The notes under the pieces were generated by a model. That model saw nothing but the letters and a program-made list of their open reading frames with translations, was not told the DNA's origin and made no database searches. Below, piece after piece: positions 4,944-64,000 of a DNA stretch of 64,000 bases (within the stretch, counting starts at the first letter, position 1; every line of letters begins with the position of its first letter). Both the position numbers and the translations under genes were made by a program. This DNA comes from Branchiostoma belcheri. Taxonomy: Eukaryota. The stretch spans positions 8,155,655-8,219,654 of the forward strand of contig NW_017803490.1 in NCBI RefSeq assembly GCF_001625305.1, given 5' to 3'.

Positions 4944-7028
4944 TTATATCTTTTTAACCCGGGCTTCCTCAATCACCTTTGCAACATCACTGTGTTTTGT
5001 TTCTACGGCAGCTTGATATGGAGTCTTGCTACTTTTGTCTGGTATAGATATATCTGCCCCTGCTTCGATAAGTACTTTCACAACTTCCATGTTTCCATAG
5101 AATGCTGCTATCCACAATGGTGTTTTTTTATCCAAGTCTGTCTTGTTCAAGTCTGCCCCCGCTTGGGTCAAGATGCTCACAATCTCTGCATGTCCTCTGT
5201 CAGCAGCAAACCACAGTGGAGTCATTCCCATATCATCTACCTTGTTTAAGTCTGCTCCCGCTTGCACCAAGATGCTCACGACCTCTGCATGTCCTTTCTC
5301 AGCCGCCACTGATAGTGGAGTCGTTCCCTCCTTGTCTGCCTTGTTCAAGTCAGCCCCCGCTTGAATCAAGGTTCTCATGGTCTCTGCGTGTCCTTGCTCA
5401 GCTGCTAAAAACAAGGCAGTTGTTCCCCTGCTGTTCGTCCTGTTTAGATCCGCATCTGCTTCTGTCAGGATGCTCACCATCTCTGCATTACCACTCTGAG
5501 CCGCCAACTGCAGTACAGACTTCCCCATACCACTTTCTGTGTTTGCACTGTCTGTGTTTGCCCCTGCTCCAGGGTCTGCCCCTTTCTGCAGCAGGAGTTT
5601 GACGATGCTAGAATGTCCGCCCCTCATTGCATCCCAGAGTGGTGTTTCTCCCTCAGAGTTCTCTGTGTTCACCTGTACACCTGCCTGTAGCAAGGTCTTC
5701 ACCTTGTCTTCATCACCTGTCCAGGCTGTTATCCTTAACAGCGCATCTCTCCAGGTGTCTCTCAGTTCCTCGTAGGTTTGTGTAGACTCTTCACCTGTTT
5801 CCTGCGTTTGTGTACACTCCTCAGAGTGTTCACCTGTTTCCTTCATTTCTGACAACACAAAGGCATCCATAGCTTCCTCCACTATCTCTGCCACCTCTTC
5901 TTCAAGCTGTTCTGTTGACAGAACGTCCACCTCTAAGGGACAGTTGAGCCCAATGTTCTCAAACTCTGCCTGTAAGTCAGCTGCCAGCTTGCCACTTTCT
6001 TGGTAATCATTTAATTCACTGATGCTTTCATCAGTCTTGGGAAACATCTGTATACAAATTGAAGATGACCACATTTTGCCAATTTCGAAACCTTTACATT
6101 GTTTAATGATGAATTCCTTGCACAAGTCTAGACTACTATCATCAATTTGTAAAATGGTATCGAAAATTTCCTCCCGAGCAGACGATTCTACCACAAGATA
6201 GTAGCATTTCCTAAGCATTTCCCTTGCAAGTTGCATGCTACTAACTGCATTCAGTACGAATTTCGGGTCGCTCGAATGTCTGTCACTTTGTTGACTCTGT
6301 TTTCCTTTAGTGATCTTCTTTGTTTTCTTAACTGTTTTCTTCTTGACTTTCTTGTTTTCTTTGCCTATAGGTGATTCAGATGCCTGCGATGAGCTTGTGG
6401 CAGTAGATGGAACTGATGTGGTGTTTTCCAAAGCGCTTTCCTTTCGCTTCTGGCTTAGGACACCAGTTGAAGTATCTGATAATGGTGGGGTCTCAACAGA
6501 CTGACTGTTATCGGTGGTATTTTGTGCTAGACCTGAACTAGAGACCTCATTAGACATACCTGATAGTGACAGTTTCTTCAAATCTACATTTAGACAGTCA
6601 CTCTCTTCTGCAGAGTCATGTTTAGGCTGTGAACTCTGGACAGAAATATCCGAAAATGGAGGGGCCACTGTCTCAACATCTTGACTTTGTGCAATAGTTT
6701 CTGTGTTGAGCTGTGAAGCATCATCCTGTAGATCTTGGTATAGCTTGTCTTTCAGCCTATCCACAAGGTCTTGTCTTTTTATCTCCTTTAAAGCGGCCAG
6801 TAGTTTCACCACTGTCGCCTGCTTTCCTTCTTGTTGCCTCCACTTTTCCAGCATCGTACGGTTCCGCCATATCAGATGAATTGTCTGACTCTTAGTAACC
6901 ATTTCCTCGACAATGTTGTACTTCAGTCCTAATTTAAAGCCAAGATCGATCCAGTCATCCCCCAGATTTGACTGTACAATGTCAAAAGCTGCGTCCAACT
7001 CTGCTCCTACATCACCTCCAACCGCCAT
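4944..7028 (-). CDS. Gene B. A 694-aa single-exon protein: N-terminal death domain, S/T-rich and lysine-rich linker, conserved unknown module, acidic tract, then about 7-8 C-terminal ankyrin repeats.
   Basis: Uninterrupted ORF in the six-frame track. DD-like N-terminus (…LDAAFDIVQSNLGDDWIDLGFKLGLKYNIVEEMV…IHLIWRNRTMLEKWRQQEGKQATVVKLLAALKEIKRQDLVDRLKDK). ANK repeats (GETPLWDAMRGGHSSIVKLLLQKGADPG…, TPLSVAAEKGHAEVVSILVQAGADLNK…). Confidence 0.85.
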   Translation of the reverse strand: MAVGGDVGAELDAAFDIVQSNLGDDWIDLGFKLGLKYNIVEEMVTKSQTIHLIWRNRTMLEKWRQQEGKQATVVKLLAALKEIKRQDLVDRLKDKLYQDLQDDASQLNTETIAQSQDVETVAPPFSDISVQSSQPKHDSAEESDCLNVDLKKLSLSGMSNEVSSSGLAQNTTDNSQSVETPPLSDTSTGVLSQKRKESALENTTSVPSTATSSSQASESPIGKENKKVKKKTVKKTKKITKGKQSQQSDRHSSDPKFVLNAVSSMQLAREMLRKCYYLVVESSAREEIFDTILQIDDSSLDLCKEFIIKQCKGFEIGKMWSSSICIQMFPKTDESISELNDYQESGKLAADLQAEFENIGLNCPLEVDVLSTEQLEEEVAEIVEEAMDAFVLSEMKETGEHSEECTQTQETGEESTQTYEELRDTWRDALLRITAWTGDEDKVKTLLQAGVQVNTENSEGETPLWDAMRGGHSSIVKLLLQKGADPGAGANTDSANTESGMGKSVLQLAAQSGNAEMVSILTEADADLNRTNSRGTTALFLAAEQGHAETMRTLIQAGADLNKADKEGTTPLSVAAEKGHAEVVSILVQAGADLNKVDDMGMTPLWFAADRGHAEIVSILTQAGADLNKTDLDKKTPLWIAAFYGNMEVVKVLIEAGADISIPDKSSKTPYQAAVETKHSDVAKVIEEARVKKI

Positions 7029-11450: not shown

Positions 11451-11556
11451 CTTGCCTCGGTGGGGTAGACTAAGTGAAATATATCCCCTGGTGACGCACT
11501 CGTCTGTTGAGTTGAAGTTGTTTGGCCAGTAAAATAACGCCGCTGTTTTGTTACTG

Positions 11557-11568
11557 TGTATAAATAAG
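11557..11568 (-). promoter_or_regulatory. TATA-like element (TGTATAAATAAG) about 110 bp upstream of the gene C start codon, within the conserved 5' flank.
   Basis: TATAAATA motif. The same motif, with surrounding sequence conserved, lies upstream of gene D. Confidence 0.35.
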
Positions 11569-11962
11569 CACCTCTCAATTACAAAAGACCCTGTGCCCTT
11601 CAAAACAGTAGGGTTGACCCTAAACCTAACCTTATCGCTGACCAAGACTCAGGTAAGGTGAGTAGACGTTCTTTTGTCTTGTCTGTACAGTAGCTATAGA
11701 AGATATAGAAGACTGGTAACCAGACCCATGTGAGCTCAGAGCCTTCGGCGCTGGTAGTGTTTTGGGCCGCAAAACCGTAGTGTTTCGGCCCCGCGCGTCG
11801 GGGGTAGATTTTTATGTTTACCTTAAACAGCATGCATTTGCTTTCAAATGTTATTTTTCTACAACGATGTAGTTGCAGACAGTTTAGGTTTGTTCGCTCA
11901 CAATGCGGTCGGTGCGCAGTAGAAGACTGGGGACATGTCTGTGGGTATAGCTCGCCTGTGCT

Positions 11963-12833: not shown

Positions 12834-15065
12834 TTATGTATTTTTAATTAAGCATTCCTCAATCACCTTAGCAACATCACTGTGTCCCATTTCTATGGCA
12901 GCTTGATAGGGAGTTTTGCCAGTTTTGTCTGGTATAGAAACATCTGCCCCCGCTTCAATAAGTACTTTCACAGCTTCCATGTTCCCACAGTGTGCAGCTG
13001 TCCACAATGGTGTCTGTTCATCCTTGTTTGATTTGTTCAGGTCCGCCCCCGCTTTTATCAAGATGCTCACAATGACTACACCTTCACTTTCAACCACCAC
13101 CCACAGTGGCGTCCTTCCCATAATGTCTGCCTTGTTCAAGTCCGCCCCAGCTCGTATCAAGATGCTCACGATCTCGGCATGTTTACTCCACGCTGCCACC
13201 CAGAGTGGGGTCTCTTCCATGCTGTTTGCCTGGTCCAAGTCCGCCCCCGCTTGTGTCAGGATGCTCACAATCTCTGCACTTCCTCTCTCAGCCGCCACCC
13301 ATAGTGCAGTTCTTCCCTCATCATCTGCATTGTTCAAGTCTGCCCCCGCTTGTATCAAGATGCCAACAACCTCTGCATGTTTCCTCTTAGCCGCCACCCA
13401 CAGCGGAGTCCTTCCCAGAACACCTGCTGTGTCCAAGTCAGCCCCTGCTTGTATCAAGATGCTCACGACCTCTGCATGTCCATTCTCAGCTGCCGCCCAC
13501 AGTGGAGTCCTCCCCATGCTGTTTGCCTTGTTCAAGTCCGCCCCCGCTTGTATCAAGGTGCTCACCATCTCTGCATTTCCACTCTCAGCTGCAACGAAAA
13601 GTGCAGTTCTCCCCTCATCATCTGCTTTGTCCAAGTCCGCCTCTGCTTGTGTCAGCATGCCCACAATCTCTGTATTACCACTCTGAGCTGCCAGCTGCAG
13701 TAGAGTCTGCCCAATAACACTTGCTGTGTTTGCCCCCGCTCCAGGGTCTGCCCATTTCTGCAGCAGGAGTTTGACAATGTTAGGATGTCCTCCCCTCACT
13801 GCATCCCAGAGCGGTGTTTCTCCCTCGGAGTTCTGTGTGTTCACCTGTACACCTGCCTGTAGCAGGGTCTTCACCTTGTCTTCATCACCTGTCCAGGCTG
13901 TGATCCTTAACAGCGCATCTCTCCAGGCGTCTCTCAGGTGCTCGTAGGTTTGTGTAGATTCTTCGCCTGTTTCCTGCGTTTGTGTAGACTCCTCAGAGTC
14001 GTCACATTTTTCCTGCGTTTCTGACAACACAAACATGTCCATAGCTTCCTCCACTATCTCTTCCACTTCTTCTTCAAGCTCCTCCATTGTCAAAACGTCC
14101 ACCTCTAAGGGACAGTTGAGCCCAATGTTCTCAAACTCTGCCTGTAAGTCTGCGGCTAGCTCGCCACTTTCTTGGTACCTGTTTAATTCGCTGATGCTTT
14201 CGTCAGTTTTGGGAAACATCTGTACACAGATTGAAGATGACCACATTTCACCAATTTCGAAATCTTTGCAAAGTTTAAGGATGATTTCCTTGCACAAGTC
14301 TAGTCTACCACCATCGATTTGTGATAGGGCCTCTAACAGTTCTTCCCGAACAGATGATTTTACCACAAGATAGTAGCACTCCTTACGCTTTTGCTTTGCA
14401 AGCTGCATACTACTAACTGCTTTCAGTACAAATTTCGGGTCGCTCGAATGTCTGTGACTTTGTTGACTCTGTTTTCCTTTAGTGGCTTTTTTTGTTTTCT
14501 TACCAGTTTTCTTCTTGACTTTCTTGTTTTCTTTGCCTATCGATGATTCAGATGCCTGCGATGAGCTTGTGGCAGTAGACGGCAGTGTGGTATATTCAAA
14601 CTTGCCTTGCTTTGATCGTGGGCTAGAGACACTCTCTTCTGTGGAGTGTTGTTTAGGCGGTGAACTCGAGAATCCTGTTGAAATATCCGATAATGGTGGG
14701 GACACCGTCTCAACGACTCGACACTTTTCAGTGACGTCTGTGTTGAGCTGTGGATCGGCATCCCGTAGGTCTGGGTACTTGTCTTTCAGTCTGTCCACGA
14801 GGTCTTGTCTTTTTATCTTCTGTAAAGCGTGCAGAAGATCCTGTACTGTCGCCTGCTTTCCTTCTTGTTGCCTCCATTTTTCCAGCATGGTACGGTTCCG
14901 CCATATCAGGTGAATTGTCGGACTCCTATTAACCATTTCCTCGACAACGTTATACTTCAGTCCTAATGCTAAGCCTAGGTCGATCCAGTCATCCCCCAGG
15001 TCTGACTGTATAGTGTCAAAAGCTGCCTTCAACTCTGTCTCTGCGTTAAAACCAACCGCTGCCAT
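12834..15065 (-). CDS. Gene D. A 743-aa DD-ANK paralogue: DD, linker, unknown module, acidic tract, then about 9 ankyrin repeats.
   Basis: Uninterrupted track ORF. N-terminus MAAVGFNAETELKAAFDTIQSDLGDDWIDLGLALGLKYNVVEEMV. ANK repeats (RTPLWAAAENGHAEVVSILIQAGADLD…). Confidence 0.85.
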   Translation of the reverse strand: MAAVGFNAETELKAAFDTIQSDLGDDWIDLGLALGLKYNVVEEMVNRSPTIHLIWRNRTMLEKWRQQEGKQATVQDLLHALQKIKRQDLVDRLKDKYPDLRDADPQLNTDVTEKCRVVETVSPPLSDISTGFSSSPPKQHSTEESVSSPRSKQGKFEYTTLPSTATSSSQASESSIGKENKKVKKKTGKKTKKATKGKQSQQSHRHSSDPKFVLKAVSSMQLAKQKRKECYYLVVKSSVREELLEALSQIDGGRLDLCKEIILKLCKDFEIGEMWSSSICVQMFPKTDESISELNRYQESGELAADLQAEFENIGLNCPLEVDVLTMEELEEEVEEIVEEAMDMFVLSETQEKCDDSEESTQTQETGEESTQTYEHLRDAWRDALLRITAWTGDEDKVKTLLQAGVQVNTQNSEGETPLWDAVRGGHPNIVKLLLQKWADPGAGANTASVIGQTLLQLAAQSGNTEIVGMLTQAEADLDKADDEGRTALFVAAESGNAEMVSTLIQAGADLNKANSMGRTPLWAAAENGHAEVVSILIQAGADLDTAGVLGRTPLWVAAKRKHAEVVGILIQAGADLNNADDEGRTALWVAAERGSAEIVSILTQAGADLDQANSMEETPLWVAAWSKHAEIVSILIRAGADLNKADIMGRTPLWVVVESEGVVIVSILIKAGADLNKSNKDEQTPLWTAAHCGNMEAVKVLIEAGADVSIPDKTGKTPYQAAIEMGHSDVAKVIEECLIKNT

Positions 15066-23627: not shown

Positions 23628-25856
23628 ATGGCGACCGGAGGTAACACAGAGCCAGAGTTGGACGCAGCTTTTGACATTCTACAGTCAGAGCTGGGGGAGG
23701 AATGGACACAGCTTGCCTTAGAATTAGGGCTGAAGTACAACATTGTCGAGGAAATGGTTACTAAGAGTCCGACAATTCACCTGATATGGCGGAACCGTAC
23801 CATGCTGGAAAAATGGAGGCAACAAGAAGGAAAGCAGGCGACAGTACAGGAACTACTGCTTGCTTTGAAGAAGATAAAAAGACAAGACCTCGTGGATAGA
23901 CTGAAAGACAAGTACACATATCTACAGGATGCTGATCCACAACTCAACACAGACGTCACTGAAAAGTGTCGAGTTGTTGAGACGGTGACGCCTCCGTTAT
24001 CGGATATTTCTACAGGATTCTCGAGTTCACCGCCTAAACAATACTCCACAGAAGAGAGGGTCTTAAAATCTAGCCCACGATCAAAGCAAAGCGTGATTGA
24101 AAATACCCCATCAGTTCCATCTACTGCCACAAGCTCATCGCATTCGTCTGAATCATCTAAAGGCACAAAAAACTTGAGAGTCAAGAAGAAAACTGGTAAG
24201 AAAACAAAAAAGGGCACTAAAGGAAAACAGAGTCAACAAAGTGACAGACATTCGAGCGACCCGAAATTCGTACTGAATGCAGTTAGTAGCATGCAGCTTG
24301 CAAGGGAAAGGCTTAGGAAATGCTACTATCTTGTGGTAGAATCGTCTGCTCGGGAAGAAATTTTGGATACGATTTTACAAATTGATGATAGTAGTCTAGA
24401 CTTGTGCAAGGAATTCATCAGTAAACAATGTAAAGATTTCGATACTGGTAAAACATGGAAATCTTCAATCTATGTACAGATGTTTCCCAAAACTGCCGAA
24501 AGCATCAGCGAATTAAACAGGTACCAAGAAAGTGGCAAGCTGACTGCTGACTTACAGGCAGAGTTTAAAAACATTGGGCTCAAGTGTCCCTTAGACTTAG
24601 AGGTGAAAATTCTGACAATGGAAGAGCTTGAAGAAGAAGTGTCAGAGATAGTGGAGGAAGCTATGGACGTCTTTGTGTTGTCAGTAACCCAGGAAACAGA
24701 TGAAGACTCAGAGGAGTGTACACAAACGCAGGAAACAGATGAAGAATCGTCACAAACCTACGAGGAACTGAGAGACACCTGGAGAGATGCGCTGTTAAGG
24801 ATAACAGCCTGGACAGGTGATGAAGACAAGGTGAAGACCCTGCTACAGGCAGGTGTACAGGTGAACACAGAGAACTCCGAGGGAGAAACACCGCTCTGGG
24901 ATGCAGTGAAGGGCGGACATGCTAACATCGTTACACTTCTGTTGCAGGCTGGAGCAAATCCAGACATGGTTGACGCGAATGGCTCTACTCCACTTCTCCA
25001 TGCTACTTCTCTTGGGTACCTGGAAGTGTGCAGGACACTTGTGTGTGGCGGTGCGGATGTCAACATGGCAGATACAAAACTAACACAAACACCCCTTCGG
25101 ATAGCTATAGAGAAGTCTGACTGGCTGATGCTGACTACGCTTATCCGCCCAGCCAAACACTCATGCGCCAATGACAATGTAAATAAACCTCTGGGTACGT
25201 TTGGTGGCAGCCCGCTCTCTTTGTCTGTTAAAAAGCTCACAGACTTTGAAAAAGGCATTGACACTGAGTCTTCCATGGTAGAGTGCAGGCGTGAGTGGTA
25301 CGAGGAATGGTGTGATCACGTCAGAATTTTCGAGATTTTGTGCAGAGCTGGAGCTAAGAATAAGATTGACTCTACCGACAGACTTGGCCACACATTACTG
25401 CAGTCTGCCTGCAAAGAAGGTTGTGCGATGACAGCAAAACTACTGCTAGACAACGGGGCAGACCGTGACAAACAGGACGACAAAGGTAGAACTCCGATTT
25501 GGGTGGCAGCTTGGCAGGGACACGCAGAGATTGTTAGCGCTTTGATACAAGAAGGTGCTGATTTAAACAAAGCGGACACAGAAAAAAAGACACCGTTGTG
25601 GATAGCTGCAAGAAAAGGGCATGCAAAAGTTGTTAAGACACTTATTGAAGCAGGGGCAGACATTTCTTTACGGGACAACACTGGTATGACCCCACTCCGT
25701 GCTGCTACTAAAAGTAGGCAGATGAATCGGCATGCTGTTGTCTCAATGCTTGTGAAAGCTGCTAGAAGAAAACCATGTGTAGAGAGAGTTAGAAAGACAA
25801 GTTCCAGGGAAAAGTCACCTGGTTATCATACTACTGAGGACTTTGAATATGGCTGA
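23628..25856 (+). CDS. Gene E. A 742-aa DD-ANK paralogue on the opposite strand. Same DD, linker, module and acidic architecture, but a diverged C-terminal ankyrin region that is interrupted.
   Basis: Track ORF MATGGNTEPELDAAFDILQSELGEEWTQLALELGLKYNIVEEMVTKSPTIHLIWRNRTMLEKWRQQEGKQATV… The module (FVLNAVSSMQLARERLRKCYYLVVESSAREEILDTILQIDDSSLDLCKEF…) and the YEELRDTWRDALLRITAWTGDEDKVKTLLQAGVQVN motif are nearly identical to gene B. ANK repeats (GRTPIWVAAWQGHAEIVSALIQEGADLNKAD…). Confidence 0.85.
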   Translation: MATGGNTEPELDAAFDILQSELGEEWTQLALELGLKYNIVEEMVTKSPTIHLIWRNRTMLEKWRQQEGKQATVQELLLALKKIKRQDLVDRLKDKYTYLQDADPQLNTDVTEKCRVVETVTPPLSDISTGFSSSPPKQYSTEERVLKSSPRSKQSVIENTPSVPSTATSSSHSSESSKGTKNLRVKKKTGKKTKKGTKGKQSQQSDRHSSDPKFVLNAVSSMQLARERLRKCYYLVVESSAREEILDTILQIDDSSLDLCKEFISKQCKDFDTGKTWKSSIYVQMFPKTAESISELNRYQESGKLTADLQAEFKNIGLKCPLDLEVKILTMEELEEEVSEIVEEAMDVFVLSVTQETDEDSEECTQTQETDEESSQTYEELRDTWRDALLRITAWTGDEDKVKTLLQAGVQVNTENSEGETPLWDAVKGGHANIVTLLLQAGANPDMVDANGSTPLLHATSLGYLEVCRTLVCGGADVNMADTKLTQTPLRIAIEKSDWLMLTTLIRPAKHSCANDNVNKPLGTFGGSPLSLSVKKLTDFEKGIDTESSMVECRREWYEEWCDHVRIFEILCRAGAKNKIDSTDRLGHTLLQSACKEGCAMTAKLLLDNGADRDKQDDKGRTPIWVAAWQGHAEIVSALIQEGADLNKADTEKKTPLWIAARKGHAKVVKTLIEAGADISLRDNTGMTPLRAATKSRQMNRHAVVSMLVKAARRKPCVERVRKTSSREKSPGYHTTEDFEYG

Positions 25857-39639: not shown

Positions 39640-40900
39640 GATTCTCCTATTTAGTATATTACACTGGCCTAAAAGAGTTCCATGTACTCCATTTTAAATC
39701 GAGTTGTGGCAGTATTTCCTTTGAGATTCCAGCTCCCACTCTTTCAGAATCAGACAAACCACGATTGAAGCGAGATGTGAGGGAAAATGTTGACACAAAG
39801 TAGTGTCGGAGTCATGTATGTGGCATGTATTTCTCCTATTTAGTATTACACTGGCCTAAAAGAGTTCCATGTACTAGACTTGTGGCAGCATTTCCACTGA
39901 GATTTCAACCCACACTCTTTCAGAATCAGACAAACCACGATTGAAGCGAGATGTGAAGGAAATAGTTGACACAAAGTAGTGTCGGAGTCATGTATTTGGC
40001 ATGTATTTCTCCTATTTAGTATTACACTGGCCTAAAAGACTTCTACGTCCTCGATTTTAAATGGATTTGTGGCAGCATTTCCTCTGAGATTCCAGCCCAC
40101 ACTCTCCCAGAATCAGACAAACCACGACTGAAACGAGATGTGAGGGAAACTGTTGACACAAAGTAGTGTCGGAGGCATGTATTTGGCATGTATTTCTCCT
40201 ATTTAGTATTGCACCGGCCTAAAAGGGTTCCATGTACTAGATTTTAAAAGGAGTTGTGGCAGCATTTCCTTTGAGATTTTAGCTCCCACTCTTTCAAAAT
40301 CAAACAACGATTGAAACGAGATGTGAGGGAAAATGTTGACACAAAGTAGTGTCGGAGGCATGTATTTGGAATGTATTTCTCCTATTTAGTATTACACTGG
40401 CCTAAAAGAGTTCCATGTACTAGATTTTAAATGGAGTTGTGGCAGCATTTCCACTGAGATTCACAGCTCGCACACTTTCAGAATCAGACAAACCACGACT
40501 GAAACGAGATGTGAGGGAAAATGTTGACACAAAGTAGTGTCGGAGTCATTTATTTGGCATGTATTTCTCCTATTTATTATTACACTGGCCTAAAAGGGTT
40601 TCATGTACTAGAGTTGTGGCAGCATTTCCTCTGAGATTTCAGTTCCCACACTTTCAGAATCAGACTAACCACGATTGAAACGAGATGTGAGGAAAACTGT
40701 TGACACAAAGTAGTGTCGGAGGCATGTATTTGGCATGTATTTGGCATGTTTTTCTCCTATTTAGTATTACACTGGCCTAAAAGGGTTCCATGTACTAGAG
40801 TTGTGGCAGCATTTCCTTTGAGATTCCAGCTCCCCCACACTCTTTCAGAATCAGGCAGCCCACGATTGAAACGAGATGTGAGGAAAATTTTGACACTCGG
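39640..40900. repeat. Satellite-like tandem array, about 180-bp unit x about 7 ('tttctcctatttagtattacactggcctaaaagagttccatgtactag…cacgattgaa.cgagatgtgagggaaa.tgttgacacaaagtagtgtcggag.catgtatttggcatgta')
   Basis: Period seen directly. Confidence 0.85.
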
Positions 40901-43129: not shown

Positions 43130-43850
43130 CTTTACATGGTTAAAGGCAACTACAGATTGCACTCACTATTTTATTAACGAATCTTCCCTTAATACATCGA
43201 GGAGCCATCACCCCTCCTAAACCATCTAACGCACCGTCCCCAGGTAGCAAATTTCCAGACCTAACACTCCTCTTTGGAAGATGTTTCCGGAAGCGAGTTT
43301 TGTATCTCTAACGTTACATGCGTGTCCCTTGTACGGTAGTTGTACCCATGCCATTTTTCATTAACGAATCTTCCCTTAATATACTATAGGGACATGATAG
43401 GACATTCTCCCTAAATCATCTAACGTACCATCCCCAGGTACCAAATTTCCAGACCTAATACTCCTCTAGGTAAGATTTTTCCGGAAGCGAGTTTTGTAAT
43501 TCTAAAGTTTAAGAAGCATGTCCCGATGCCATTTTTCATTAACGAATCCTCCCTTAATATATTATAGGGACATGCATCCAAAGCATCTAACGTACCATCC
43601 CCAGGTAGCAAATTTCCAGACCTAATACTCCTCTCGGTAAGATGTTTCCGGAAGCGAGTTTTGTAATTCTGAAGTTTAACATGCATGTCCCTTGCACCAA
43701 AGCAATTTTTGATTAACGAATCCTCCCTTGATATATTATAGGGAAATCCCCCCTAAATCATCTAACGTACCGTCCCCTGGTACCAAATTTCCAGACCTAA
43801 TACTCCTCTCGGTAAGATGTTTCCGGAAGCGAGTTTTCCGTGCAATCAGC
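43130..43850. repeat. Tandem array, about 175-bp unit x about 4 ('ttattaacgaatcttcccttaata…catctaacg.accgtccccaggtagcaaatttccagacctaa.actcctct…gatgtttccggaagcgagttttgta')
   Basis: Period seen directly. Confidence 0.85.
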
Positions 43851-43965: not shown

Positions 43966-44139
43966 ATGGGCGGGCTGCAGAGCCGGGTAACGTCTGTGTT
44001 TGAGAAGAGAAGGAGTAGCGGGGAGACGGACGGGATGGGTTGTTTCGGCAGCCGGATGCAGACGTGTAAGACCCACCTCAGGAGGACCTACAACGGGAAA
44101 AGGCCGCTCAGAGAACAGTCCAAGAGGATGCTGACTCAG
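43966..44139 (+). CDS. First coding exon of an NCS/KChIP-like EF-hand calcium-sensor gene. It has an N-myristoylation motif (MGGLQS).
   Basis: Track ORF MGGLQSRVTSVFEKRRSSGETDGMGCFGSRMQTCKTHLRRTYNGKRPLREQSKRMLTQ, ending exactly at donor 'CTGACTCAG|gtaaga' in phase 0. MGxxxS fits the N-myristoylation consensus typical of recoverin/NCS proteins. It joins in frame to the next exon. Confidence 0.5.
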
Positions 44140-45889
44140 GTAAGATTGATACTCTTGATAGAGTAGTCTTCTCTAACATCATTTCAACAACTAAAAACGC
44201 TCAGAGAACGTAATGGTCGAAGAGAATGCTCACTCAGGTAAGATTAATATGGAAAAATTCTAAGATTTGTCTTTTACTTAATTTAGTATTTGACATAGAA
44301 GTCTTCTATACTGTCATGCCAACAACACAGTCCAAGAGAATGCTGACTTAGGTGAGACTTATAGGGAGAAACTCCAAGATCAAAGGTACAGCTCCGAATG
44401 TTCATACATCTACAACTGCCTTAAGAAGCGAGAAGAAGTTGAACTTTAAAATATAGATCGCATTAGCATGTACAGTTTTAGTAAGATATTGCTGTAACTT
44501 TTTGTTTATTTAGCTTAGCTTGTGTATTTAGCTTGCAAGAGCATAAATGTACAATTTCAGTCATTCTAATATCATGCGTCAACAAAAATCGCCCAGAAAC
44601 ATACACAGAGGAAGCTGACACGGCAATGGCGCGTAGGTCTTCGAACGTACGATTTTTTTGCCGTAGAATTTTCAGGCAATGACAGAAGCAACAGCTGACC
44701 AGCATTTAGTCAGAATTTTCCCTAAGAAGACAGCAAAATTTTGCAAGACACGTTGAACTATCTCAAGAATGCCCGCAGTTTACGATCGCGCGACGATCGC
44801 ACACAAGGAATATGATCAAACGTTATGATAAAAAAAGAAAAGACAAGATTCTAGCATTTCGAGTCTCTGAGTACGTTAAAGCGCTGCCTTCTATATCTAC
44901 GACTGAAAAATGCCATGTCAACTACAAAAGACAAGCCTCAAGCCTAGGTCCATACGCGCAATGTATTTGTTAAGATGAAGACTTTTTGCTAATTTTACTG
45001 TGTCCAAATGGATACTAACTGATGTAACTTAGTGTTGAAATTGCCTCATCATCCTTTTTACCCTGAATAAAGCCTTGTATCTTCTTATACGACGTACGAA
45101 AACTTGTTGCCAAACACCTTTGCAAATCGCACAAAGTTAAATTTAAAGATGTTTGCAAATTGTACGTTTTGTCGGGTATAAGACCACCTTTTATGCTTAC
45201 TGTACATAGCTTCAGAATGCTGCATTTCCAAGTATAAAACGAGTAGATGTCACTTCCAGATCTTGGTTTTATCTTAATATTCATATGGCGAAGTCTTAGA
45301 ACGTCAGGATTTACAGCGTACACCGTTAAGTACCAACCGCAGAATGTTTATTGCCTCTGGGAGTCGCACAGGATCAACACCGGAATAATAAAACACACAC
45401 GTGCCTTTATATAAGATAAACTCGGATTAACGTTCAGGTTATCTACCTTGAAAAACGCCAAAAGGCAGTTACTCTAGCAACTGGATATAATTTTGGAAGC
45501 GGTCAGACGTTTCAGCTAGTATCCACTAGCTTTTGTCAGTGACTTGAGAGACCAGAGGAGAAATGCAGGTTTATAAGCACAACCTATTGACCTGCATTTC
45601 CCCTCTGGTCTCTCAGTCACTGACGAAAGGTAGTGGATACTACCTGAAACGTCTGACGTTTTCGAAATCATATCCAGTTGCTTGAGTAACTGTTTTTGGC
45701 GTATCGTATTACCTGGATGTCTAACCTTCATCCAAAACAACCTTGTTCTTTAGTCGTGCATGGTTGAAGACGATCGTTCGATTTTCTTGTGACTTTGAAC
45801 CAACAGAGCTTATGCCTAGGTCACATTTACAGAAATAGTGCCCATGATTATTATCGAAAACTTTTCTGTGTTTTCTTGTCTTTTATATC

Positions 45890-48289: not shown

Positions 48290-49230
48290 CCATGGCATTT
48301 ACACTAACGCGACGTGAGACCGACTCTAAATCAAAACTAGACAAGTTCCCGAGTACATTTTCCTTATCCACTCTCTCCCTATTACACTGCACTACATAGA
48401 TGTAAAATTATGCTATTAAGTCACATTTCCAAACTGGAGCCCGGCCGGGCATGGCATTTACACTAACGCGACGTGAGACCGTCGCAAAATCAAAACTAGA
48501 CAAGTTCCCGACTACATTTTCCTTATCCACTCTCTCCCTATTACACTGCACTATATAGATGTAAAATTATGCTATTAAGTCACATTTCCAAACGGGGGCC
48601 CGGCCGGGCATGGCATTTATACTAAGGCGACGTGAGACCGATGCTAAATCACAACTAGACAAGTTCCCGAATATATTATCCTTTATCCATTGCCCGCCAC
48701 ATAGGCATGTACGTGTACTTAATGTGCTATTAGGTCCCATTTCCAAACCGCAGCCCGGCCAGGCTGTTCAAATCAGCAATATACACAAATGATTTATTTT
48801 CTGTGATGTACGTGATATGGCAAGTCAAGATTTATGAAAGAAGAAGAAAGCGAGGGAAGACGGCCAGGAGTGACCATGGCATTTATACTAACGCAACGTG
48901 AGACCGGTGCTAAATAAAAACTAGGCAAGTTCCCGAATATATTTTGAGCCACTCCTGCCTAATACATAGATATGTAGTTATCCTATTTGCAAACCAGGAC
49001 CCGGCCGGACGAAAAATAAATTCATATCAAGAATATACGCAAACATGATTAGTTTTTAAAAATTTTTTTGTGTTTTCCTGTCTTTTATAAGTAATGTTTT
49101 TCGTCAAGTACCTGAGTATATTCTCCTTATTCACTCCCTGCCTATTACACTGAACTACCACATAGATGTAAAATTATGCTATTAAGTCACATTTCCAAAC
49201 GGCCCGGTCGGCCTGTTAAGTTTGCACGAA
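48290..49230. repeat. Tandem array, about 160-bp unit x about 6, whose unit ends carry the MITE terminal motif '…tttccaaac.g.gcccggccgggc'
   Basis: Repeated 'catggcatttacactaacgcgacgtgagaccg…ctagacaagttcccga.tacatttt…'. Confidence 0.8.
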
Positions 49231-50267
49231 CGAAGATTAAACAATTCACATCAAAAATATACACAAATTCTTTTTTTCTTAAGCGATGCACGTGATCTGG
49301 CAAATAAAGATTTATGAAAGAAGGTGACAAGATATGGAAGAAATCCTGCATGTTAAAAATTTGAATATCAACTGTGCATCCAGAAACAAGTCAGGGGATG
49401 GCCATTCAGAAAAATGACTCTCTTGATCTAAAGAGACCAATAATGCAAAAATTGGGGCGTTCTAGTTTGTTCATGTTTACTTCCTGTGACCATTTTGCAA
49501 CCCTAAATCAGAACATTGATTCCCGTGGAAGCGCTCCAAGCTTGTTTACGATCGATGTCCACAAGGCGACCACAGTGCTAACGGGATTTACTTCAATTAG
49601 ACCTGAGGGACTTCAAAGTAGCTCTAGATGTGTCCGGTTCGACACTTAACAAACATGACATGCCGAAGCCAATTTCCTATCTGTTCCATTAGATCCTCTG
49701 AAGTGACGAAGGCCATAGAAAGAGGTTGTTGGAACGAATTGTAACAAGCGTGATATCTGATCAATATCTATAGCGTTACAAATCTCATTATTCTGTAGGA
49801 GAATGAGAGACGGAAATCGAGAATTAAATGCGGGAACAGAACATGAAAACACGTGTAAAAATAAAGAATAGAAAATCCAGACGTCAGTCACCATGGTAAC
49901 TGGTGCTGTAGGAGACACCCTGTGGTGTTAGGTTACATGATGTAGCAAGTTGCAGGGCAGAGTTGTAGGGGCTGGGCACCATATTATAAACAGATTAACA
50001 TTATGCATCTGCACGCAAATGTTACCTCACTAGTTCTCTGTTCATCTCTCTGTTTCCTTGTCTTGTTGGCGAGGTACTAGTTTTTCTTCATCTCTATATT
50101 TTGATTGTCTTCCCTTCTCTATGTCTCTACTACTGGATAAATTACGAATATTAATTTCGGACGTTTCGAGTAACTAACCATCCTCAATGTATGTTTTATT
50201 CTTCAGTTAGCGAGGGTGACACACTTCACAGTGGCGGAGGTGAAGCAGTGGTACCGGATGTTCCTGC

Positions 50268-50300
<33 letters not shown>

Positions 50301-50376
50301 GAATCCCTCCTCTTTCTCTCACTCACTCACTCACCCACTCTCTCTCTCACTCACTCTCCCTCTCTCTCCCCTCCAG

Positions 50377-50526
50377 TTGGCGAGGGTGACGCACTTCACA
50401 GTGGCTGAAGTAAAGCAGTGGTACCGGCTGTTCCTGACGGACTGTCCGGACGGTCAGCTGTCCGAGCGCCAGTTCGTCGGCTTCTACTGCAACCACTTCG
50501 AGCACGGCAACGCCGAGATTAAAGCG
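50377..50526 (+). CDS. NCS-like gene exon (EF-hand 1 region)
   Basis: Acceptor 'ctcccctccag|TTGGCG'. Donor 'AAAGCG|gtgagt'. Encodes LARVTHFTVAEVKQWYRLFLTDCPDGQLSERQFVGFYCNHFEHGNAEIKA. This aligns with NCS-1/hippocalcin '[33 protein letters not shown]…FFPYGDASKFA'. Confidence 0.75.
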
Positions 50527-56507: not shown

Positions 56508-56699
56508 ATCCTGGCCAGACGTATTTTCCACACGTTTGACCGTGACGCCAGCGGGTGCGTGGACTTCCGGGAGTTCCTGTGCGGGATGTCCGCCATGCTG
56601 AGGGGAACCCCCATGGAGAGACTGAAGTGGGCCTTCTGTATCTTCGACCTGAACAGCGACGGGACTGTCAGCAAGAAGGAACTCATCAACGTGCTCACG
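56508..56699 (+). CDS. NCS-like gene exon (EF-hands 2-3)
   Basis: Acceptor 'tgttccccag|ATCCTG'. Donor 'CTCACG|gtgggg'. Encodes ILARRIFHTFDRDASGCVDFREFLCGMSAMLRGTPMERLKWAFCIFDLNSDGTVSKKELINVLT. It has two canonical EF loops (DRDASGCVDFRE and DLNSDGTVSKKE) and the NCS hallmark 'KL.WAF..YD'. Confidence 0.8.
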
Positions 56700-59600
56700 G
56701 TGGGGTATATTTGTTGTCCCTTTGTAACAGTGTTACAGTTGTAAAGCCTGGTTGTATATACCAGGGTTTTTTTTTTTCTAGAAAAAAATTCAGAAAGACT
56801 TAATGCTGTGTATGTAGCCACGTAGGGTTTAATCTGAAAATTGACATGAAGGTGCTGGCTGGTTACATGAGGGAGCAGCGCCCTTATTCCCTGGTTTAGA
56901 ATAACTCCTGTATATACAATATCGGTCACATGGACACAAGTGATTTGTTTCTTTGTTCACTTCGCTCACTCGGTAGTTTATTCAGTTGTCAGCAAGAAGG
57001 AACTCATCAACGTGCTCACGGTGGGGAAATTTATTGTGCCTTTCACTGCACGACAAATTGGGTTTACTAGTTGTAGTAAACAGTTACTTTTGTAAACAGT
57101 ACCGTGCTTTAGAATTGTAGTAAATAAACTGGTAACGAGGTCCACAAGTAGAAAGTTTACTAAGGTCTTGTCCGTAGGCTAATTGCAAGTACATGTAACA
57201 TAACAATAAAGGATGGACAATGGATGTAACTTCATGTAACTTCTTCTTCTACTTCTTCTTCTCGGAACTAAATACTAACTTATTGGGTTCTACTTCTTTT
57301 TCCGAGACAGTAGAAGACGAATGATCCCACTTTTTCTACAATGTGCGGGTTTTGTGATATTGGACAGCAATATCCTTTATGATATATAATGCATGTTGCA
57401 TTCCTAGCTTACAGTCATAAGTTAGGACATGTATTCTATTACCATGTGTATGCTTGTGAGTCCTTATTTAGTTTGTGTGTGCGATGGATGGTGTATATTT
57501 GATTTTTGAACAGAAGCGAAGGACGGTAAATAGACTTTTTAAAACTCTTCTTATTGTGTTATATCCATTTACAAATCGCTACCGTATATTTTCCTGTCAA
57601 AATGGGATGACAAAAACCATTAACAGGTTTACTAAGAATACTCAAATAAAATAGTTTGCCAACGACAAGATTCCTCAACAAGTTCCCAGCAAGCGGTAGA
57701 TTCCACGTCTTTTCTTCTGAAAATACTCCTATAAAATAGTTTGCAAAGACCAGCTTTCTACACAATAACGCAGTAAGGGGTAGATTTTACTTCTTTTCTT
57801 TGCAACTCAAAACCAGCCGCATGTGGTAAATGGTCCGCATTTTCTCGTAAAAGCCAACCAACACTTCATAGGAACATGACACATGCACCAGTACGATACG
57901 CACACATCTAAACCGCCTCGGCTTACTTAGATGCGTAGTCTCAAATCCCCTTCTGCTATTACATTAGAATAAGTGATATTATACGCTGCGTTCTTCCTAC
58001 GCTCTCGACAATGTTTGGTAAGCCGAAGACGTAATGATAGGGGTTAGACACACAAAAATCGGCCATCAAAGGATTATCCTACCCATAAGAAGGATTGGAC
58101 AGGCAGTAATGTTGATGGTCTGACCGATGTTTAAATCTAGATAAATGCGTAAGCACGAAGGCCGTATAAAACATTCGAGACCTCACCAAAAACTAGGAAA
58201 ATAAATCACATTTTGGAGGTAAACTATAAACTAGAAAGCATTTTATAAATGCCCACCAAGTCTCACTGTGACCCGTTTCTTTGCAATCAAAGCTTTGTTT
58301 CAATCAGCACTGAGGAAAAAGCCGAGAAAACTAGAAAGGTAACATTTGCAAAGCAAATTCATAATGTAACCCAACACCACAGGGAGTCTGCTACAGCACC
58401 AGTTACCAAGGTTATTGACCTTATGTGTTCGAAGAAGAAGAGGAAGAAACAGAACAAAAATTATGTTTTCCTTCCGCGAAGGAAGGGGCTAGAACTATGC
58501 TTGTCGTTACAGGACCTCCCCATGACATCTTCGTTATATAGTCAAATCTTTGTTGCTAATTCGCCTGCATTTCGACCATTAAGAAGTGGGTCGCTGACTT
58601 TAAGCACACCAGGGAGGGCCCTAAAAGTTTACCTGGACACCTGAGGCCGCAGCTCCCTAAGACTTGCTGATCTCATCATTGTATAATGATATCAACCAGG
58701 CTAGAGAGACATTCACGTCTTTGTATTTCGGTTAGGCTGAGGTCTCATTTCCAAGCCCAATCCTGACCGGGTTGTTTACGTAAACGAAAAATAAAACAAT
58801 TGATATCAAGAATATCTACAGGTAGTGCTCATAATTAATTGTTGCCTATCTTTAGTGTTTGGGACTGGATATCATACTTCTCGTTTCATAAGACTGCCCG
58901 GCCGGGCCCCGGTTTGGAAATGTGACCTCAGCATTAAGGATTGAAACATTTCTCTCCATTAACGTGACTTTGTCTGAACCCACAAAAGCATGAACGTGTC
59001 AGGATCTGAGATTACCAGGTGGTTTACACCGAGGGGGTGCTGTCAGGATGAGGAATGTTGTTATTTTGATGTACTGGTAACGAGATCCCCCAGGCACCCT
59101 GGTAACGAGAGGGCATGGCTGACTCAGCAAACCTCGAGTGTCTACAAAATTCCCTTTAGACTATTCGCGCCGAGTGCCTCCAGCGAGCCAATATAGCGAG
59201 AAATCAAAGATCTCCTATCTCTTTGTGAAGTATAAAGAGTTTTATAATGAGAATTAAACTGTTCTCCAACTCAATAAAATTGACTCAACGGAATTTTAGA
59301 CCGACTCACTCGGTCTTCATCAGCTTTCTGATCCCTTTCTTTTCTCAAGTTTCTTGAGTTGGAGAACAGTTTAATTCCCATTATGGTTTTTACTAACTCA
59401 GATTTCATGCTAGTATTAAGAGTTTTTGTTTCTTTATTTCTTTCTTTCTAAAACGAAACCTCTATACACTGAGGTAATAACCCTAAGGAAACCCATACAA
59501 CCCAATCGAACACCAAATCGAACACACTATTCGAAATAGAACAGGGGGTTCGACGTGTTCGACTCTCAATGGTCTATTCTATGCAGCACAAGTGTGAAAC

Positions 59601-61250: not shown

Positions 61251-63239
61251 GAGCCCGATTCAAATCCTGCGATGCGCCTCAATTCAGTAGGGACGACACG
61301 TTTTCGATTCCATAATTTTATCAAGGTCAATGTATGAACCTCCGGCTTACTCCTCAGGTTTTATGTAGCCCTGTCTTGCCTTGGGCATGGTAAAAAAAGG
61401 TACTTGGTGTATACTCGAAATCACATTTCAGAACTTATTTTGTTGTTAAGTGCACTTCACAGCGTAGCCTGGCTATCTACGGGCTCTAAAGGCTCACGTT
61501 TGAAGTTAGCTCTAAAGGCTCACGTTTGAAGTTAGCTCTAAAGGCTCACGTTTGAAGTTAGCTCTAAAGGCTCACGTTTGAAGTTAGCGTGAAAGTGTAT
61601 CTCCATTTGTTGACACATACCAAACACCCACTCGGGTCAAAAGATGTTAAACTGTATTCTATGAGAGATAAAACGACTGAAGCTCAAAATGACAAATTGT
61701 GAGTGTTAGCGAGCCTAACAGAATTTACGCAAGCACTTAACGTGATCCATGTTTGTATTACATCATAGTTGATCATGGGCAGGATTGCAGACCAAATACT
61801 TAAAACTTAGGTTCATTGATGGATGACATAACACAAAGATAACATCCGGACAGATGACTACACATGCACAGAGCAATCCCTGTGTGTGTTGTTGTGGAAG
61901 GCTTCATCACTCACTGTCAGATAAAGTGAGAACTGAAGATTGGAAGGATGTTTTTGCTGTCGGTTACACTTTGTAAGCAGCAGTTATGTAGAAACGCTGT
62001 TAGTCAGAAATGGCGGCTCACTAGGAAGTGCTGAGTACAAATATAATCAGCATCTCGTGCTTAGGCTTTTTAAGCCACTCTTTTTGATTTTATGGATGAC
62101 ATACACGAACACATCAATTTTCGCCCCCTCACATGCACACTAAAAGCAACCAGGCGTTTTTTTAGGTACTTCAAGTATGCCAGGAGTAGAAAAGAAAACA
62201 CGAAAATACCAGTGGAAGGGAGGCAGGGTTTGAATTAACGTACACTTGCTTTCACCATTAAGTCTTCCAAAGTCAAAGAAGGTACGCAAAATAATTTATT
62301 GTTTGGTACACCATGCTAAGTGTTTTCAGCCATTTTGTGAACCCTTCCAAATACTTTTCGCACGCAACCATGTATGATCCGCAGTGCCAAGGGGATGCCA
62401 TACACTTTCCCATAACTGCTGAGTGCTAGGCGGACAAAAAAAAAACGTTATGTACCATGCATAAAGCCGGTGATAAGCGACCATTCTGCCCTCTAGGATG
62501 TTGCACCGATTCAAGTAGTCGACATTTATTATCCTTCGACTGCTACTTTCTCCAGAGAGGTTCACAGTACATTACACATTTACTCCAGGCATAACATTCG
62601 CGAAAAACTAGACGAACCCTAAAAGCACCTACTGGGTATGCGTACGTAATGGAGCTATTAAGAGTGTCGTGCAGGTCTTCCGAGTAAGAACTTTTGGACC
62701 CACTCAAAATGGCAAACGGACAGACATGAGGTTGTAAAATGTCTAACTACACTCTTCAAACGGTCACTAGAACTTTAATCGTGTTTCAACGGCCATAAAC
62801 CTCATTGCTGCTACAGTCATACCTGCCTCTAGTGAGTTGGACTTGGTCTCAACTCTCTGACTTCTATATCCAGTCACTTCGGTCTGTAGTCACAGGGCTA
62901 CCACCTCTAAAGACTATTCGAACACCAATCTGAACACCGGTTCTATGTACAGTATGTCAGCATGCATAGAACTGTACTAAGACTAACACTAAAACTAACA
63001 TGTTCTGCAGTTACTTGAGGACCTCTTAGGAAGGTTCAGTGTCTCTGGTAGCCTTGGTCATTGGTCTCCTGTATTTTGAGTGTTAACATTTGCAATGTTT
63101 ATGTACAGATATCTACGTAAACACGATTCCAATGGCAATGTTATTCTTTGTGACTTTATGTGAAACACCACGAACATTACACAATTCAGGAAAGGATTAC
63201 CATGACTCACCCTGCCAATGTATATTTGTCCATTGACAT

Positions 63240-63960
63240 CGATGGACAGCCTCAAGCAAGTAAGCATGTTTGGAATCGTAAGAAGCCATACATCGACAAA
63301 CAACTAATCTAACTAACTTATGATGTACTGTGTTTTTTTTTTAGTTTCTCCAAGACATCAGACTTCCCCAAGAGGAAACCAACATAGGCGACCTGCTGAT
63401 GGTCAAGGAACACCGCAAACATTACACATTTTAGGAAAGAATTACTTTTCCGGTCAATGTATGTTTAAAATCGTAGGAAACAATAAAGTTATACATCGAT
63501 GAGTCCAACTAATATATTCATCTTATTCTGCAGTTTCTCCAAGACATCAGACTTCCTCAAGAGGAAACCAACATAGACGACTTTCTGTTGGCCCAGGAAC
63601 ACCGCAAACATTACACATTTCAGGAAAGAATTACTTTAATGACCAATGTATGTTTGAAATCGTAAAAACAAGTTATACATCGACGAACCCAACTAATATA
63701 TTCATCTTATTCTGCAGTTTCTCCAAGACATCAGACTTCCTCAAGAGGAAACCAACATAGACGACCTGCTGTTGTCTTAAAATGCCATTGTGCATTTGAA
63801 ATCGTAAGAAGCAGCAAACTCGTTCATTGACAAACAGCTAACCTAACTATGATGTACTGATATTTTGCAGTTTCTCCAAGACATCAGACTTCCTCAGGAG
63901 GAAACCAACATAGACGACCTCCTGTTGGCCCAGGAACGGCGGGAGCGGGAACACCACATC
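63240..63960 (+). repeat. Tandem array of 153-189 bp x 4. Each unit is an intron tail, a strong 3' splice site (ttattctgcag) and the first 60 nt or so of the NCS-like exon. Only the last unit continues as an intact exon.
   Basis: Units start at 63345, 63534, 63717 and 63870, each with 'cagTTTCTCCAAGACATCAGACTTCCTCAAGAGGAAACCAACATAGACGAC…'. Units 1-3 diverge into intron-like sequence and reach stop codons. Confidence 0.8.
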
Positions 63961-64000
63961 CAGGAGGTGACTGAGAAGATATTCGAGGAGTTAGACAGCG
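63870..64000 (+). CDS. NCS-like gene exon (partial, runs off the window)
   Basis: Acceptor 'gatattttgcag|TTTCTCC'. Encodes FLQDIRLPQEETNIDDLLLAQERREREHHIQEVTEKIFEELDS. Compared with NCS-1 '[24 protein letters not shown]'. Phase 0 continuation from the exon at 56508. Confidence 0.6.

What the first reader, a model, noticed from the sequence alone, without database searches (positions are those of the whole stretch)
63240..63960. Four-unit tandem array of '3' splice site plus exon start' in front of the last NCS exon
Each unit of about 185 bp has a strong polypyrimidine/AG acceptor followed by TTTCTCCAAGACATCAGACTTCCTCAAGAGGAAACCAACATAGACGAC (FLQDIRLPQEETNIDD). Units 1-3 then run into stop codons within 10-30 codons. 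They also contain a GTATGT donor-like site ('AATgtatgttt'). Only unit 4 continues as an EF-hand coding exon. If used, they would act as alternative or poison 3' exons, giving truncated C-termini.
Basis: seen in the sequence. Interest (0 to 1): 0.55.

Follow-up and report, generated by a model that had tools for sequence, protein, structure and literature searches.

The report
Amphioxus "mirage" repeat of a splice junction
The four-unit array is real, but it is a "mirage": a known kind of unstable amphioxus tandem repeat that copies an intron/exon boundary, here in front of the last exon of a Branchiostoma belcheri neurocalcin-like gene, and nothing indicates that the extra copies are used.

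Summary
The 48-mer occurs at 63345, 63534, 63718 and 63871, with spacing 189, 184 and 153 bp. Each copy follows a pyrimidine-rich AG acceptor. Only the last copy continues into exon 4 (EF-hand 4) of a neuronal-calcium-sensor-like gene.

The window is Branchiostoma belcheri; RefSeq XP_019622306.1 matches its exons at 100%. The array is a local tandem duplication of about 120 nt of intron tail plus the first 67 nt of exon 4. It has no dispersed copies.

Four results argue against a conserved function:
- It is absent from the B. lanceolatum ortholog, which has one copy.
- Copy number differs between B. belcheri haplotypes: four exon-start copies here, two in a second assembly, which lacks exactly units 1 and 2 (373 nt).
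- The extra copies change in a neutral way: about 2 synonymous against 6-7 non-synonymous changes, plus stops.
- Both RefSeq models skip them.

This matches the published amphioxus "mirages", minisatellite-like duplications of intron-exon boundaries in Adh3, globin, troponin C and PGBD5. Those do not disturb splicing.

Four of this gene's six visible junctions carry such copies, and all four differ between haplotypes. Use as alternative or poison exons is untested and unlikely. It is a new member of a known kind, of low to moderate interest.

The parts
63147..63344 (+). Partial unit 0: intronic part only (segment T0 from about 63162, segment I0 with a 44-nt extra stretch). It ends in acceptor 1, (T)10AG at 63343-63344.
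   Evidence: nhmmer with a unit profile hits 63162-63228 (E=4e-8) and 63264-63325 (E=9e-7). Alignments A1 and A3. It is homologous to the B. lanceolatum intron 3 tail. The 10-nt match at 63147-63156 may be chance.
63345..63533 (+). Unit 1 (189 bp): copy of the exon 4 start (63345-63411), then the GGAAC|ACC junction into an intron-tail copy. TAG at codon 30; AAT|GTATGT at 63459.
63534..63717 (+). Unit 2 (184 bp): copy of the exon start. It is open for 38 codons up to AAT|GTATGT at 63648, giving a potential in-frame 114-nt cassette. Otherwise TAA at codon 44.
63718..63870 (+). Unit 3 (153 bp): copy of the exon start cut at nt 57 (about 49 nt deleted). TAA at codon 21. Followed by the intron tail that precedes the real acceptor.
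   Evidence: It is the only extra copy also present in the second B. belcheri haplotype (L009 20921-21074).
63871..64000 (+). Real exon 4 start, phase 0: FLQDIRLPQEETNIDDLLLAQERREREHHIQEVTEKIFEELDS. It runs off the window.
   Evidence: Matches XP_078667274.1 (P0169) and the B. lanceolatum exon 4. Aligns to the paralog's last exon.
63896..63898 (+). Internal AG (CTTCCTCAG|GAGGAA), made by the only base in the 48-mer that sets unit 4 apart from units 2 and 3. XP_019622306.1 uses it as the acceptor, which removes 9 aa.
   Evidence: P0020 reads ...LINVLT|EETNIDD. Units 1-3, the L009 real exon and B. lanceolatum all have CAA here.
56508..56699 (+). Exon 3 (EF-hands 2-3), donor ACG|GTGGGG. This is the upstream partner of whichever acceptor is used.
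56666..57043 (+). Second junction repeat: exon 3 end plus donor, duplicated 320 nt downstream (56987-57026 is 40/40 identical). Absent from haplotype L009.
50201..50436 (+). Third junction repeat: acceptor plus the first 60 nt of exon 2, twice (copy at 50207-50266, real exon from 50377), with a CT-rich stretch between.
   Evidence: The upstream copy is allelic to the real exon 2 of L009.
44106..44363 (+). Fourth junction repeat: exon 1 end plus GT donor, three times (real ...CAG|GTAAGA at 44139/44140; copies ending about 44236 and 44351).

Best explanation
The array is a 'mirage' minisatellite: a local tandem duplication, of variable copy number, of the intron 3/exon 4 boundary of the Branchiostoma belcheri neurocalcin-homolog gene.

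Shown:
- The repeated unit is the last ~120 nt of the intron (segments T and I) plus the first 67 nt of exon 4.
- The exon end joins the intron start at GGAAC|ACC, where the two partners share the microhomology G(A/G)AAC.
- Only the last copy is contiguous with the exon body. The three upstream copies lie inside intron 3.

Inferred:
- The array arose by replication slippage or unequal exchange after the split from B. lanceolatum.
- It then expanded to at least four units, and unit 3 lost about 49 nt.
- One haplotype later lost units 1 and 2 by unequal exchange between the near-identical exon-start copies.
- The extra copies are removed with the intron, have no conserved role and drift neutrally.
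For: - Tandem structure and uniqueness. An nhmmer unit profile finds no other copy in the window or in four related loci.
- Host gene and reading frame.
- Segment T is intron-derived. It aligns to the B. lanceolatum intron about 145 nt upstream of that species' single acceptor.
- B. lanceolatum has one copy. All four window units map to one place, there is no tandem repeat there, and there is no local copy.
- The second B. belcheri haplotype, L009, has two copies and lacks exactly 373 nt, which is units 1 plus 2.
- Relative to the inferred ancestral exon start, the extra copies carry about 2 synonymous and 6-7 non-synonymous changes, plus stops.
- Two RefSeq models skip all extra copies.
- Three more junction repeats occur in the same gene, and all differ between haplotypes.
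- The same kind of repeat occurs in the B. floridae and B. lanceolatum orthologs and in a paralog.
- Literature: mirages spanning exon-intron boundaries have units of 10-160 bp and haplotype differences in copy number (3 against 6). Central units evolve in concert and edge units do not. Regular splicing is undisturbed (PMC3087553; PMC3902484).
Against: - No RNA data for this locus were available, so low-level or tissue-specific use of the extra acceptors is not excluded.
- By sequence, the extra acceptors have better pyrimidine tracts than the real one, and units 1 and 2 have a donor 114 nt downstream.
- The exon-start copies are much more alike (94-100% over 48 nt) than the adjacent 75 nt of intron between edge and central units (52-68%; Fisher p from 1e-6 to 1e-9 with gaps, 0.0004-0.014 for substitutions only). 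A simple whole-unit duplication history does not predict this.
- Junction repeats are over-represented in this gene: 4 of 6 junctions against 8.5% repeat coverage, binomial P about 7e-4, computed post hoc.
Confidence: 0.85

Rival explanations
1. The extra units are functional alternative or poison 3' exons. Splicing into acceptors 1-3 would give EF-hand-4-less proteins or unstable mRNAs. Unit 2 could instead act as an in-frame 38-aa cassette.
For: The acceptors are strong by sequence, and CTAAC/CTAAT branch-point-like motifs lie upstream. GTATGT donors sit 114 nt downstream in units 1 and 2, and unit 2 is open and in frame. The B. floridae RefSeq model of the ortholog ends by read-through just after exon 3, so it lacks EF-hand 4.
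Against: The array is not conserved in B. lanceolatum. Units 1 and 2 are missing from another B. belcheri haplotype. The substitution pattern is neutral and includes stops. No database protein carries a unit-derived tail. Other mirages give no aberrant mRNA.
Confidence: 0.07
2. The copies are kept by selection as splice-site decoys or helpers, for example to recruit U2AF or U1 at the ends of long introns or to tune splicing efficiency, without ever entering mRNA.
For: Junction repeats are enriched in this gene family: 7 of 18 junctions against 0 of 20 in four neighbouring fibrinogen-domain genes (Fisher p = 0.0025, junctions not independent). The exon-derived parts are more alike than the intron parts in this array. 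Copies occur at the same junctions in different species.
Against: All four repeats in this gene vary in presence or number between two haplotypes. The exon 4 array is absent from B. lanceolatum. In the B. lanceolatum exon 2 array, the exon part is no better conserved than the intron part.
Confidence: 0.05
3. The array is an assembly artefact: a falsely expanded repeat.
For: Published accounts note mis-assembled mirage regions in early drafts (PMC3087553; PMC3902484).
Against: The units differ from each other by 5-13% and by indels. An independent assembly shows the same unit 0, unit 3 and real unit in the same order.
Confidence: 0.03

Closest known systems
[quoted passage not shown] Cited via PMC3087553: Adh3 (Canestro et al. 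2002, NAR 30:2871). Globin BflGb6 and BflGb9 (Ebner et al. 2010, PMC3087553). Troponin C and PGBD5 (PMC3902484).
   Same: - A head-to-tail array whose unit is an intron end plus an exon edge with its splice signal.
- The authentic copy sits at the edge of the array, next to the exon body.
- Unit size of 150-190 bp, like BflGb6 (150-160 bp).
- Copy number differs between haplotypes (4 against 2 here; 6 against 3 in BflGb6).
- Central units resemble each other, and the edge units differ from them.
- The host is a Branchiostoma gene.
   Different: - A new host gene (neurocalcin homolog) and species (B. belcheri).
- Four such repeats in one gene.
- Units here are less alike (87-89%) than many published ones.
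- Usage in mRNA was not tested here, whereas RT-PCR was done for Adh3 and globin.
Intron gain by tandem duplication across an AGGT site (Rogers model; Hellsten et al. 2011, PMC3265369)
   Same: A short intragenic tandem duplication multiplies splice signals, and the spliceosome can still restore the original mRNA.
   Different: No new intron is created here. Intron 3 is shared with the orthologs and the paralog. The duplicated segment spans an existing intron-exon boundary rather than an exonic AGGT.
Poison exons and alternative last exons; mutually exclusive exons that arose by tandem exon duplication (own knowledge: Kondrashov & Koonin 2001; Letunic et al. 2002)
   Same: Duplicated exon-like pieces carry splice sites and in-frame stops, or an open cassette, upstream of the constitutive exon.
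   Different: Those elements are conserved and have transcript support. These copies are partial exons, vary between haplotypes, are absent from a sister species and are skipped by the gene models.

Membership tests
Amphioxus 'mirage' minisatellite | Head-to-tail tandem repeat | tested here: met
   TRF period 189, 89% matches. Four in-register copies.
Amphioxus 'mirage' minisatellite | The unit spans an exon-intron boundary and includes the splice signal | tested here: met
   Each unit is an intron tail, an AG and the first 57-67 nt of exon 4.
Amphioxus 'mirage' minisatellite | Lies in a cephalochordate gene, with the authentic copy at the array edge | tested here: met
   B. belcheri neurocalcin homolog. 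Only unit 4 continues into the exon.
Amphioxus 'mirage' minisatellite | Length instability: copy number differs between haplotypes | tested here: met
   Four exon-start copies in the window against two in L009; the difference is exactly units 1 plus 2, 373 nt.
Amphioxus 'mirage' minisatellite | Central units evolve in concert and edge units are excluded | tested here: met
   The intron segments before copies 2 and 3 are 87% alike. Those before copies 1 and 4 are 68% alike. Across the two classes identity is 52-63%.
Amphioxus 'mirage' minisatellite | Copies do not enter mature mRNA | not testable with these tools
   Indirect only: two RefSeq models skip them.
Functional alternative or poison 3' exon | Conserved across species | tested here: not met
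   Single copy in B. lanceolatum. In B. floridae, exon 4 was not found within 15.8 kb, so no test was possible there.
Functional alternative or poison 3' exon | Transcript evidence of use | not testable with these tools
   No RNA data. No protein with a unit-derived tail in the searches.
Neuronal calcium sensor (NCS) family (host gene) | N-terminal MGxxxS motif, CPxG in a degenerate EF-hand 1, four EF-hands, and closest similarity to NCS proteins | tested here: met
   MGGLQS and DCPDG are present. Pfam EF-hand hits. Best solved relatives are neurocalcin delta, hippocalcin and NCS-1, with E from 1e-28 to 1e-26. The EF-hand 4 loop DSDQDGFLILRE is in P0020 and P0169.

The most novel reading that the evidence does not exclude
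The extra acceptors are used at a low or tissue-specific level. They would then yield neurocalcin-like proteins without EF-hand 4, unstable transcripts, or a 38-aa insertion from unit 2. Because copy number varies between haplotypes (4 against 2), output of the full-length protein would be a trait that depends on the haplotype.

More broadly, junction repeats may not be inert. At exon 2, the upstream 'pseudo' copy in this haplotype is the real exon start in another haplotype. Twelve of 13 variable sites among eight copies from three species are synonymous. This suggests that units alternate between pseudo and real states and so remain under selection.
Probability: 0.1. Interest if true: 0.55.

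Novelty: new member of a known kind. Interest (0 to 1): 0.3.

Why it matters
In itself it matters little. It is one more example of a repeat class described in amphioxus since 2002, and it warns that such arrays can mislead gene prediction. A B. belcheri GenBank model of the paralog (P0002) translates a junction copy as coding sequence, and two RefSeq models of this gene differ by 9 aa at this boundary.

The locus could still serve as a small natural experiment:
- One gene carries four junction repeats.
- All four differ between two haplotypes.
- One repeat is shared with B. lanceolatum, and one with B. floridae.

That makes three questions testable with existing assemblies and RNA-seq: how the spliceosome ignores apparently better upstream acceptors, why junctions seem to be favoured, and whether such repeats feed intron sliding or gain.

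Tried and rejected
- Dispersed element or transposon carrying an acceptor: the nhmmer unit profile found nothing elsewhere.
- Non-coding RNA: no Rfam hit in 43000-64000.
- Minus-strand gene: only short chance ORFs.
- Older units further upstream (63003 'ttctgcagTTACTTGAGG' and 63060-63158): not better than shuffled sequence (612/1000 and 389/2000).
- Segment T as a diverged continuation of exon 4: only 11 nt match. T instead aligns to the B. lanceolatum intron.
- Test in B. floridae: exon 4 was not found within 15.8 kb downstream of exon 3, where a fibrinogen-domain gene lies. The B. floridae model ends by read-through into the intron.
- Species identification from an ankyrin/death-domain ORF failed, with a best hit of 62%. 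It was solved through P0020.
- Look-up of P0020's own contig: not on record.
- Canestro 2002 and Gao & Lynch 2009 are not held in the library. Both are cited only through papers that cite them.
- Selection on the exon-derived parts as a general rule: not seen in the B. lanceolatum exon 2 array.

Full report
**Observation.**
The region was read directly. The positions are 63345, 63534, 63718 and 63871, with 2, 0, 0 and 1 mismatches. TRF reports a 189-bp period with 89% matches. The repeat finder shows four in-register copies with spacing 189/184/153.

Each copy follows a pyrimidine-rich AG. The tract is 13-14 of 18 pyrimidines for the three upstream copies and only 10 of 18 for the last. Reading from each AG, stops fall at codons 30, 44 and 21 in units 1-3, and unit 4 stays open. 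AAT|GTATGT sites lie at 63459 and 63648, in units 1 and 2 only. With that donor, unit 2 would be an open, in-frame cassette of 114 nt. A partial unit 0, holding only the intron part, extends the array back to about 63162.

**Host gene and species.**
tblastn with NCS proteins and database hits define a + strand gene:
- exon 1: 43966-44139
- exon 2: 50377-50526
- exon 3: 56508-56699
- exon 4: from 63871

All junctions are in phase 0. The assembled protein has the MGGLQS and DCPDG motifs and Pfam EF-hands. Its best solved relatives are neurocalcin delta, hippocalcin and NCS-1.

An exhaustive HMMER search returned P0020, which is 100% identical to the window exons. It is XP_019622306.1, 'neurocalcin homolog [Branchiostoma belcheri]', 299 aa. 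Its cluster mate P0169 is XP_078667274.1, 308 aa, from a B. floridae x B. belcheri hybrid assembly. The window is therefore B. belcheri. Both proteins continue DSDQDGFLILREF after ...EELDS, which confirms EF-hand 4.

P0169 joins ...LINVLT to FLQDIRLPQEE, using the acceptor at 63870/63871. P0020 joins it to EETNIDD, using CAG|GAG at 63897/63898. That AG is made by the single base in the 48-mer that sets unit 4 apart from units 2 and 3. Neither model contains sequence from units 1-3.

**What the unit is.**
A profile of the unit finds no copy elsewhere in the window or in related loci. It is therefore a local duplication and not a mobile element.

The B. lanceolatum ortholog was reached by synteny through a neighbouring fibrinogen-domain gene. 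There, exon 4 (ttttgcag|TTTCTTCAGGACATCCGACTCCCTCAAGAAACC...) is single. All four window units map to that one place. No tandem repeat lies upstream of it, and no local copy of the junction exists.

The window's segment T follows each exon-start copy. It aligns to the B. lanceolatum intron about 145 nt upstream of that acceptor, not to the continuation of the exon. The unit is therefore the last ~120 nt of intron 3 plus the first 67 nt of exon 4. The join is GGAAC|ACC, with the microhomology G(A/G)AAC. Unit 3 lacks about 49 nt across that join.

**Polymorphism.**
A second B. belcheri haplotype, L009 from the hybrid assembly, has unit 0, one extra copy that matches the window's unit 3, and the real exon. 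It lacks exactly units 1 plus 2, which is 373 nt.

Relative to the shared ancestral exon start, the extra copies carry about 2 synonymous and 6-7 non-synonymous changes, plus stops. This is what neutral drift would give.

**Wider pattern.**
Four of the six junctions of this gene visible in the window carry intron-side copies of 'exon edge plus splice site':
- exon 1 donor: 3 copies
- exon 2 acceptor: 2 copies
- exon 3 donor: 2 copies
- exon 4 acceptor: 4 copies

Local direct repeats cover 8.5% of the window. The post hoc binomial P for at least 4 of 6 is about 7e-4. In L009 the corresponding copy numbers are 2, 1, 1 and 2.

Related genes show the same kind of repeat:
- The B. floridae ortholog has an array of exon 1 donor copies, one real and about three extra, the more degenerate ones seen only by eye and in the alignment.
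- The B. lanceolatum ortholog has a 119-bp, 4.3-copy array at the exon 2 acceptor.
- A B. belcheri paralog has donor-side copies that differ between two assemblies, including 20-nt units.

By the same test, 0 of 20 junctions in four fibrinogen-domain genes carry copies, against 7 of 18 in the NCS-like genes (Fisher p = 0.0025; the junctions are not independent).

**Comparison with what is known.**
This is the phenomenon published as 'mirages'. [quoted passage not shown] They were later found in globin genes (units of 150-160 bp, 3 against 6 units in two haplotypes, central units evolving in concert), in troponin C and in PGBD5. RT-PCR indicated that regular splicing is not disturbed (PMC3087553; PMC3902484).

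Every structural feature of that class is met here. Only the absence of the copies from mRNA could not be tested.

**Unexplained residue.**
Between edge and central units, the exon-derived 57 nt are far more alike than the adjacent 75 nt of intron. A simple whole-unit history does not predict this. Exchange or conversion confined to the most similar core is the likeliest cause, but that is inference.

The exon 2 repeat behaves differently from the exon 4 repeat. The window's upstream 'pseudo' copy is allelic to the real exon 2 of L009, with 3 differences in 60 nt and the same upstream intron. Its GCG-GAG type recurs in the B. lanceolatum copies. Twelve of 13 variable sites among eight copies are synonymous. 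Unequal exchange that swaps which copy is attached to the exon body would explain this.

**Verdict.**
The finding is real, correctly described and ordinary for amphioxus. It is a new member of a known kind. A conserved role as alternative or poison exons is not supported, though direct RNA evidence is still lacking.

Noticed in passing
window 50201-50436; L009 6993-7058; L008 19179-19686: The exon 2 acceptor repeat. The window's upstream 'pseudo' copy matches the real exon 2 start of a second B. belcheri haplotype (3/60 differences, same upstream intron). B. lanceolatum has 4.3 units of 119 bp. Twelve of 13 variable sites among eight copies from three species are synonymous, which suggests that units alternate between pseudo and real states.
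   Followed up: partly
window 63896-63898: An A-to-G change specific to this haplotype creates an AG 27 nt inside exon 4. RefSeq XP_019622306.1 uses it, giving a protein 9 aa shorter. XP_078667274.1 and the B. lanceolatum model use the upstream acceptor.
   Followed up: partly
window 56666-57043: The exon 3 end plus donor is duplicated 320 nt downstream, 40/40 identical. Haplotype L009 has only the downstream context, so the real donor in the window is followed by about 280 nt that L009 lacks.
   Followed up: partly
L001 27359-27380; L004; L008 5138-12617: The B. floridae RefSeq model of the ortholog (179 aa) ends by read-through into intron 3 (TVGKAIN*), and exon 4 was not found within 15.8 kb. 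In B. lanceolatum, intron 3 is 12 kb and hosts two fibrinogen-domain genes on the other strand. The B. belcheri intron (7.2 kb) has none.
   Followed up: partly
L002/L003 10001-10750: A B. belcheri paralog encodes residues 1-145 in one exon, so it lacks introns 1 and 2. Its donor-side junction copies differ between two assemblies. The GenBank protein P0002 translates one copy as coding sequence, which is probably an annotation artefact.
   Followed up: partly
window 4944-7028 (-), 8586-11645 (-), 12834-15065 (-), 23628-25856 (+): A cluster of four long intronless ORFs encoding death-domain plus ankyrin-repeat proteins. The best database hits are only 62-81% identical, and the ORFs contain internal 39-, 57- and 99-nt coding repeats.
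   Followed up: partly
window 39701-40896, 43409-43837, 48291-48689: Other tandem arrays with periods of 159-187 bp, the same size range as the junction repeat, lie upstream of the gene and in intron 1.
   Followed up: no
window 61483-61588: A perfect 26-nt repeat of 4.1 copies inside intron 3.
   Followed up: no
window 62976-63010: An (ACTAAC)n branch-point-like repeat directly upstream of a ttctgcag acceptor-like site. Its similarity to the array units is not above chance.
   Followed up: yes
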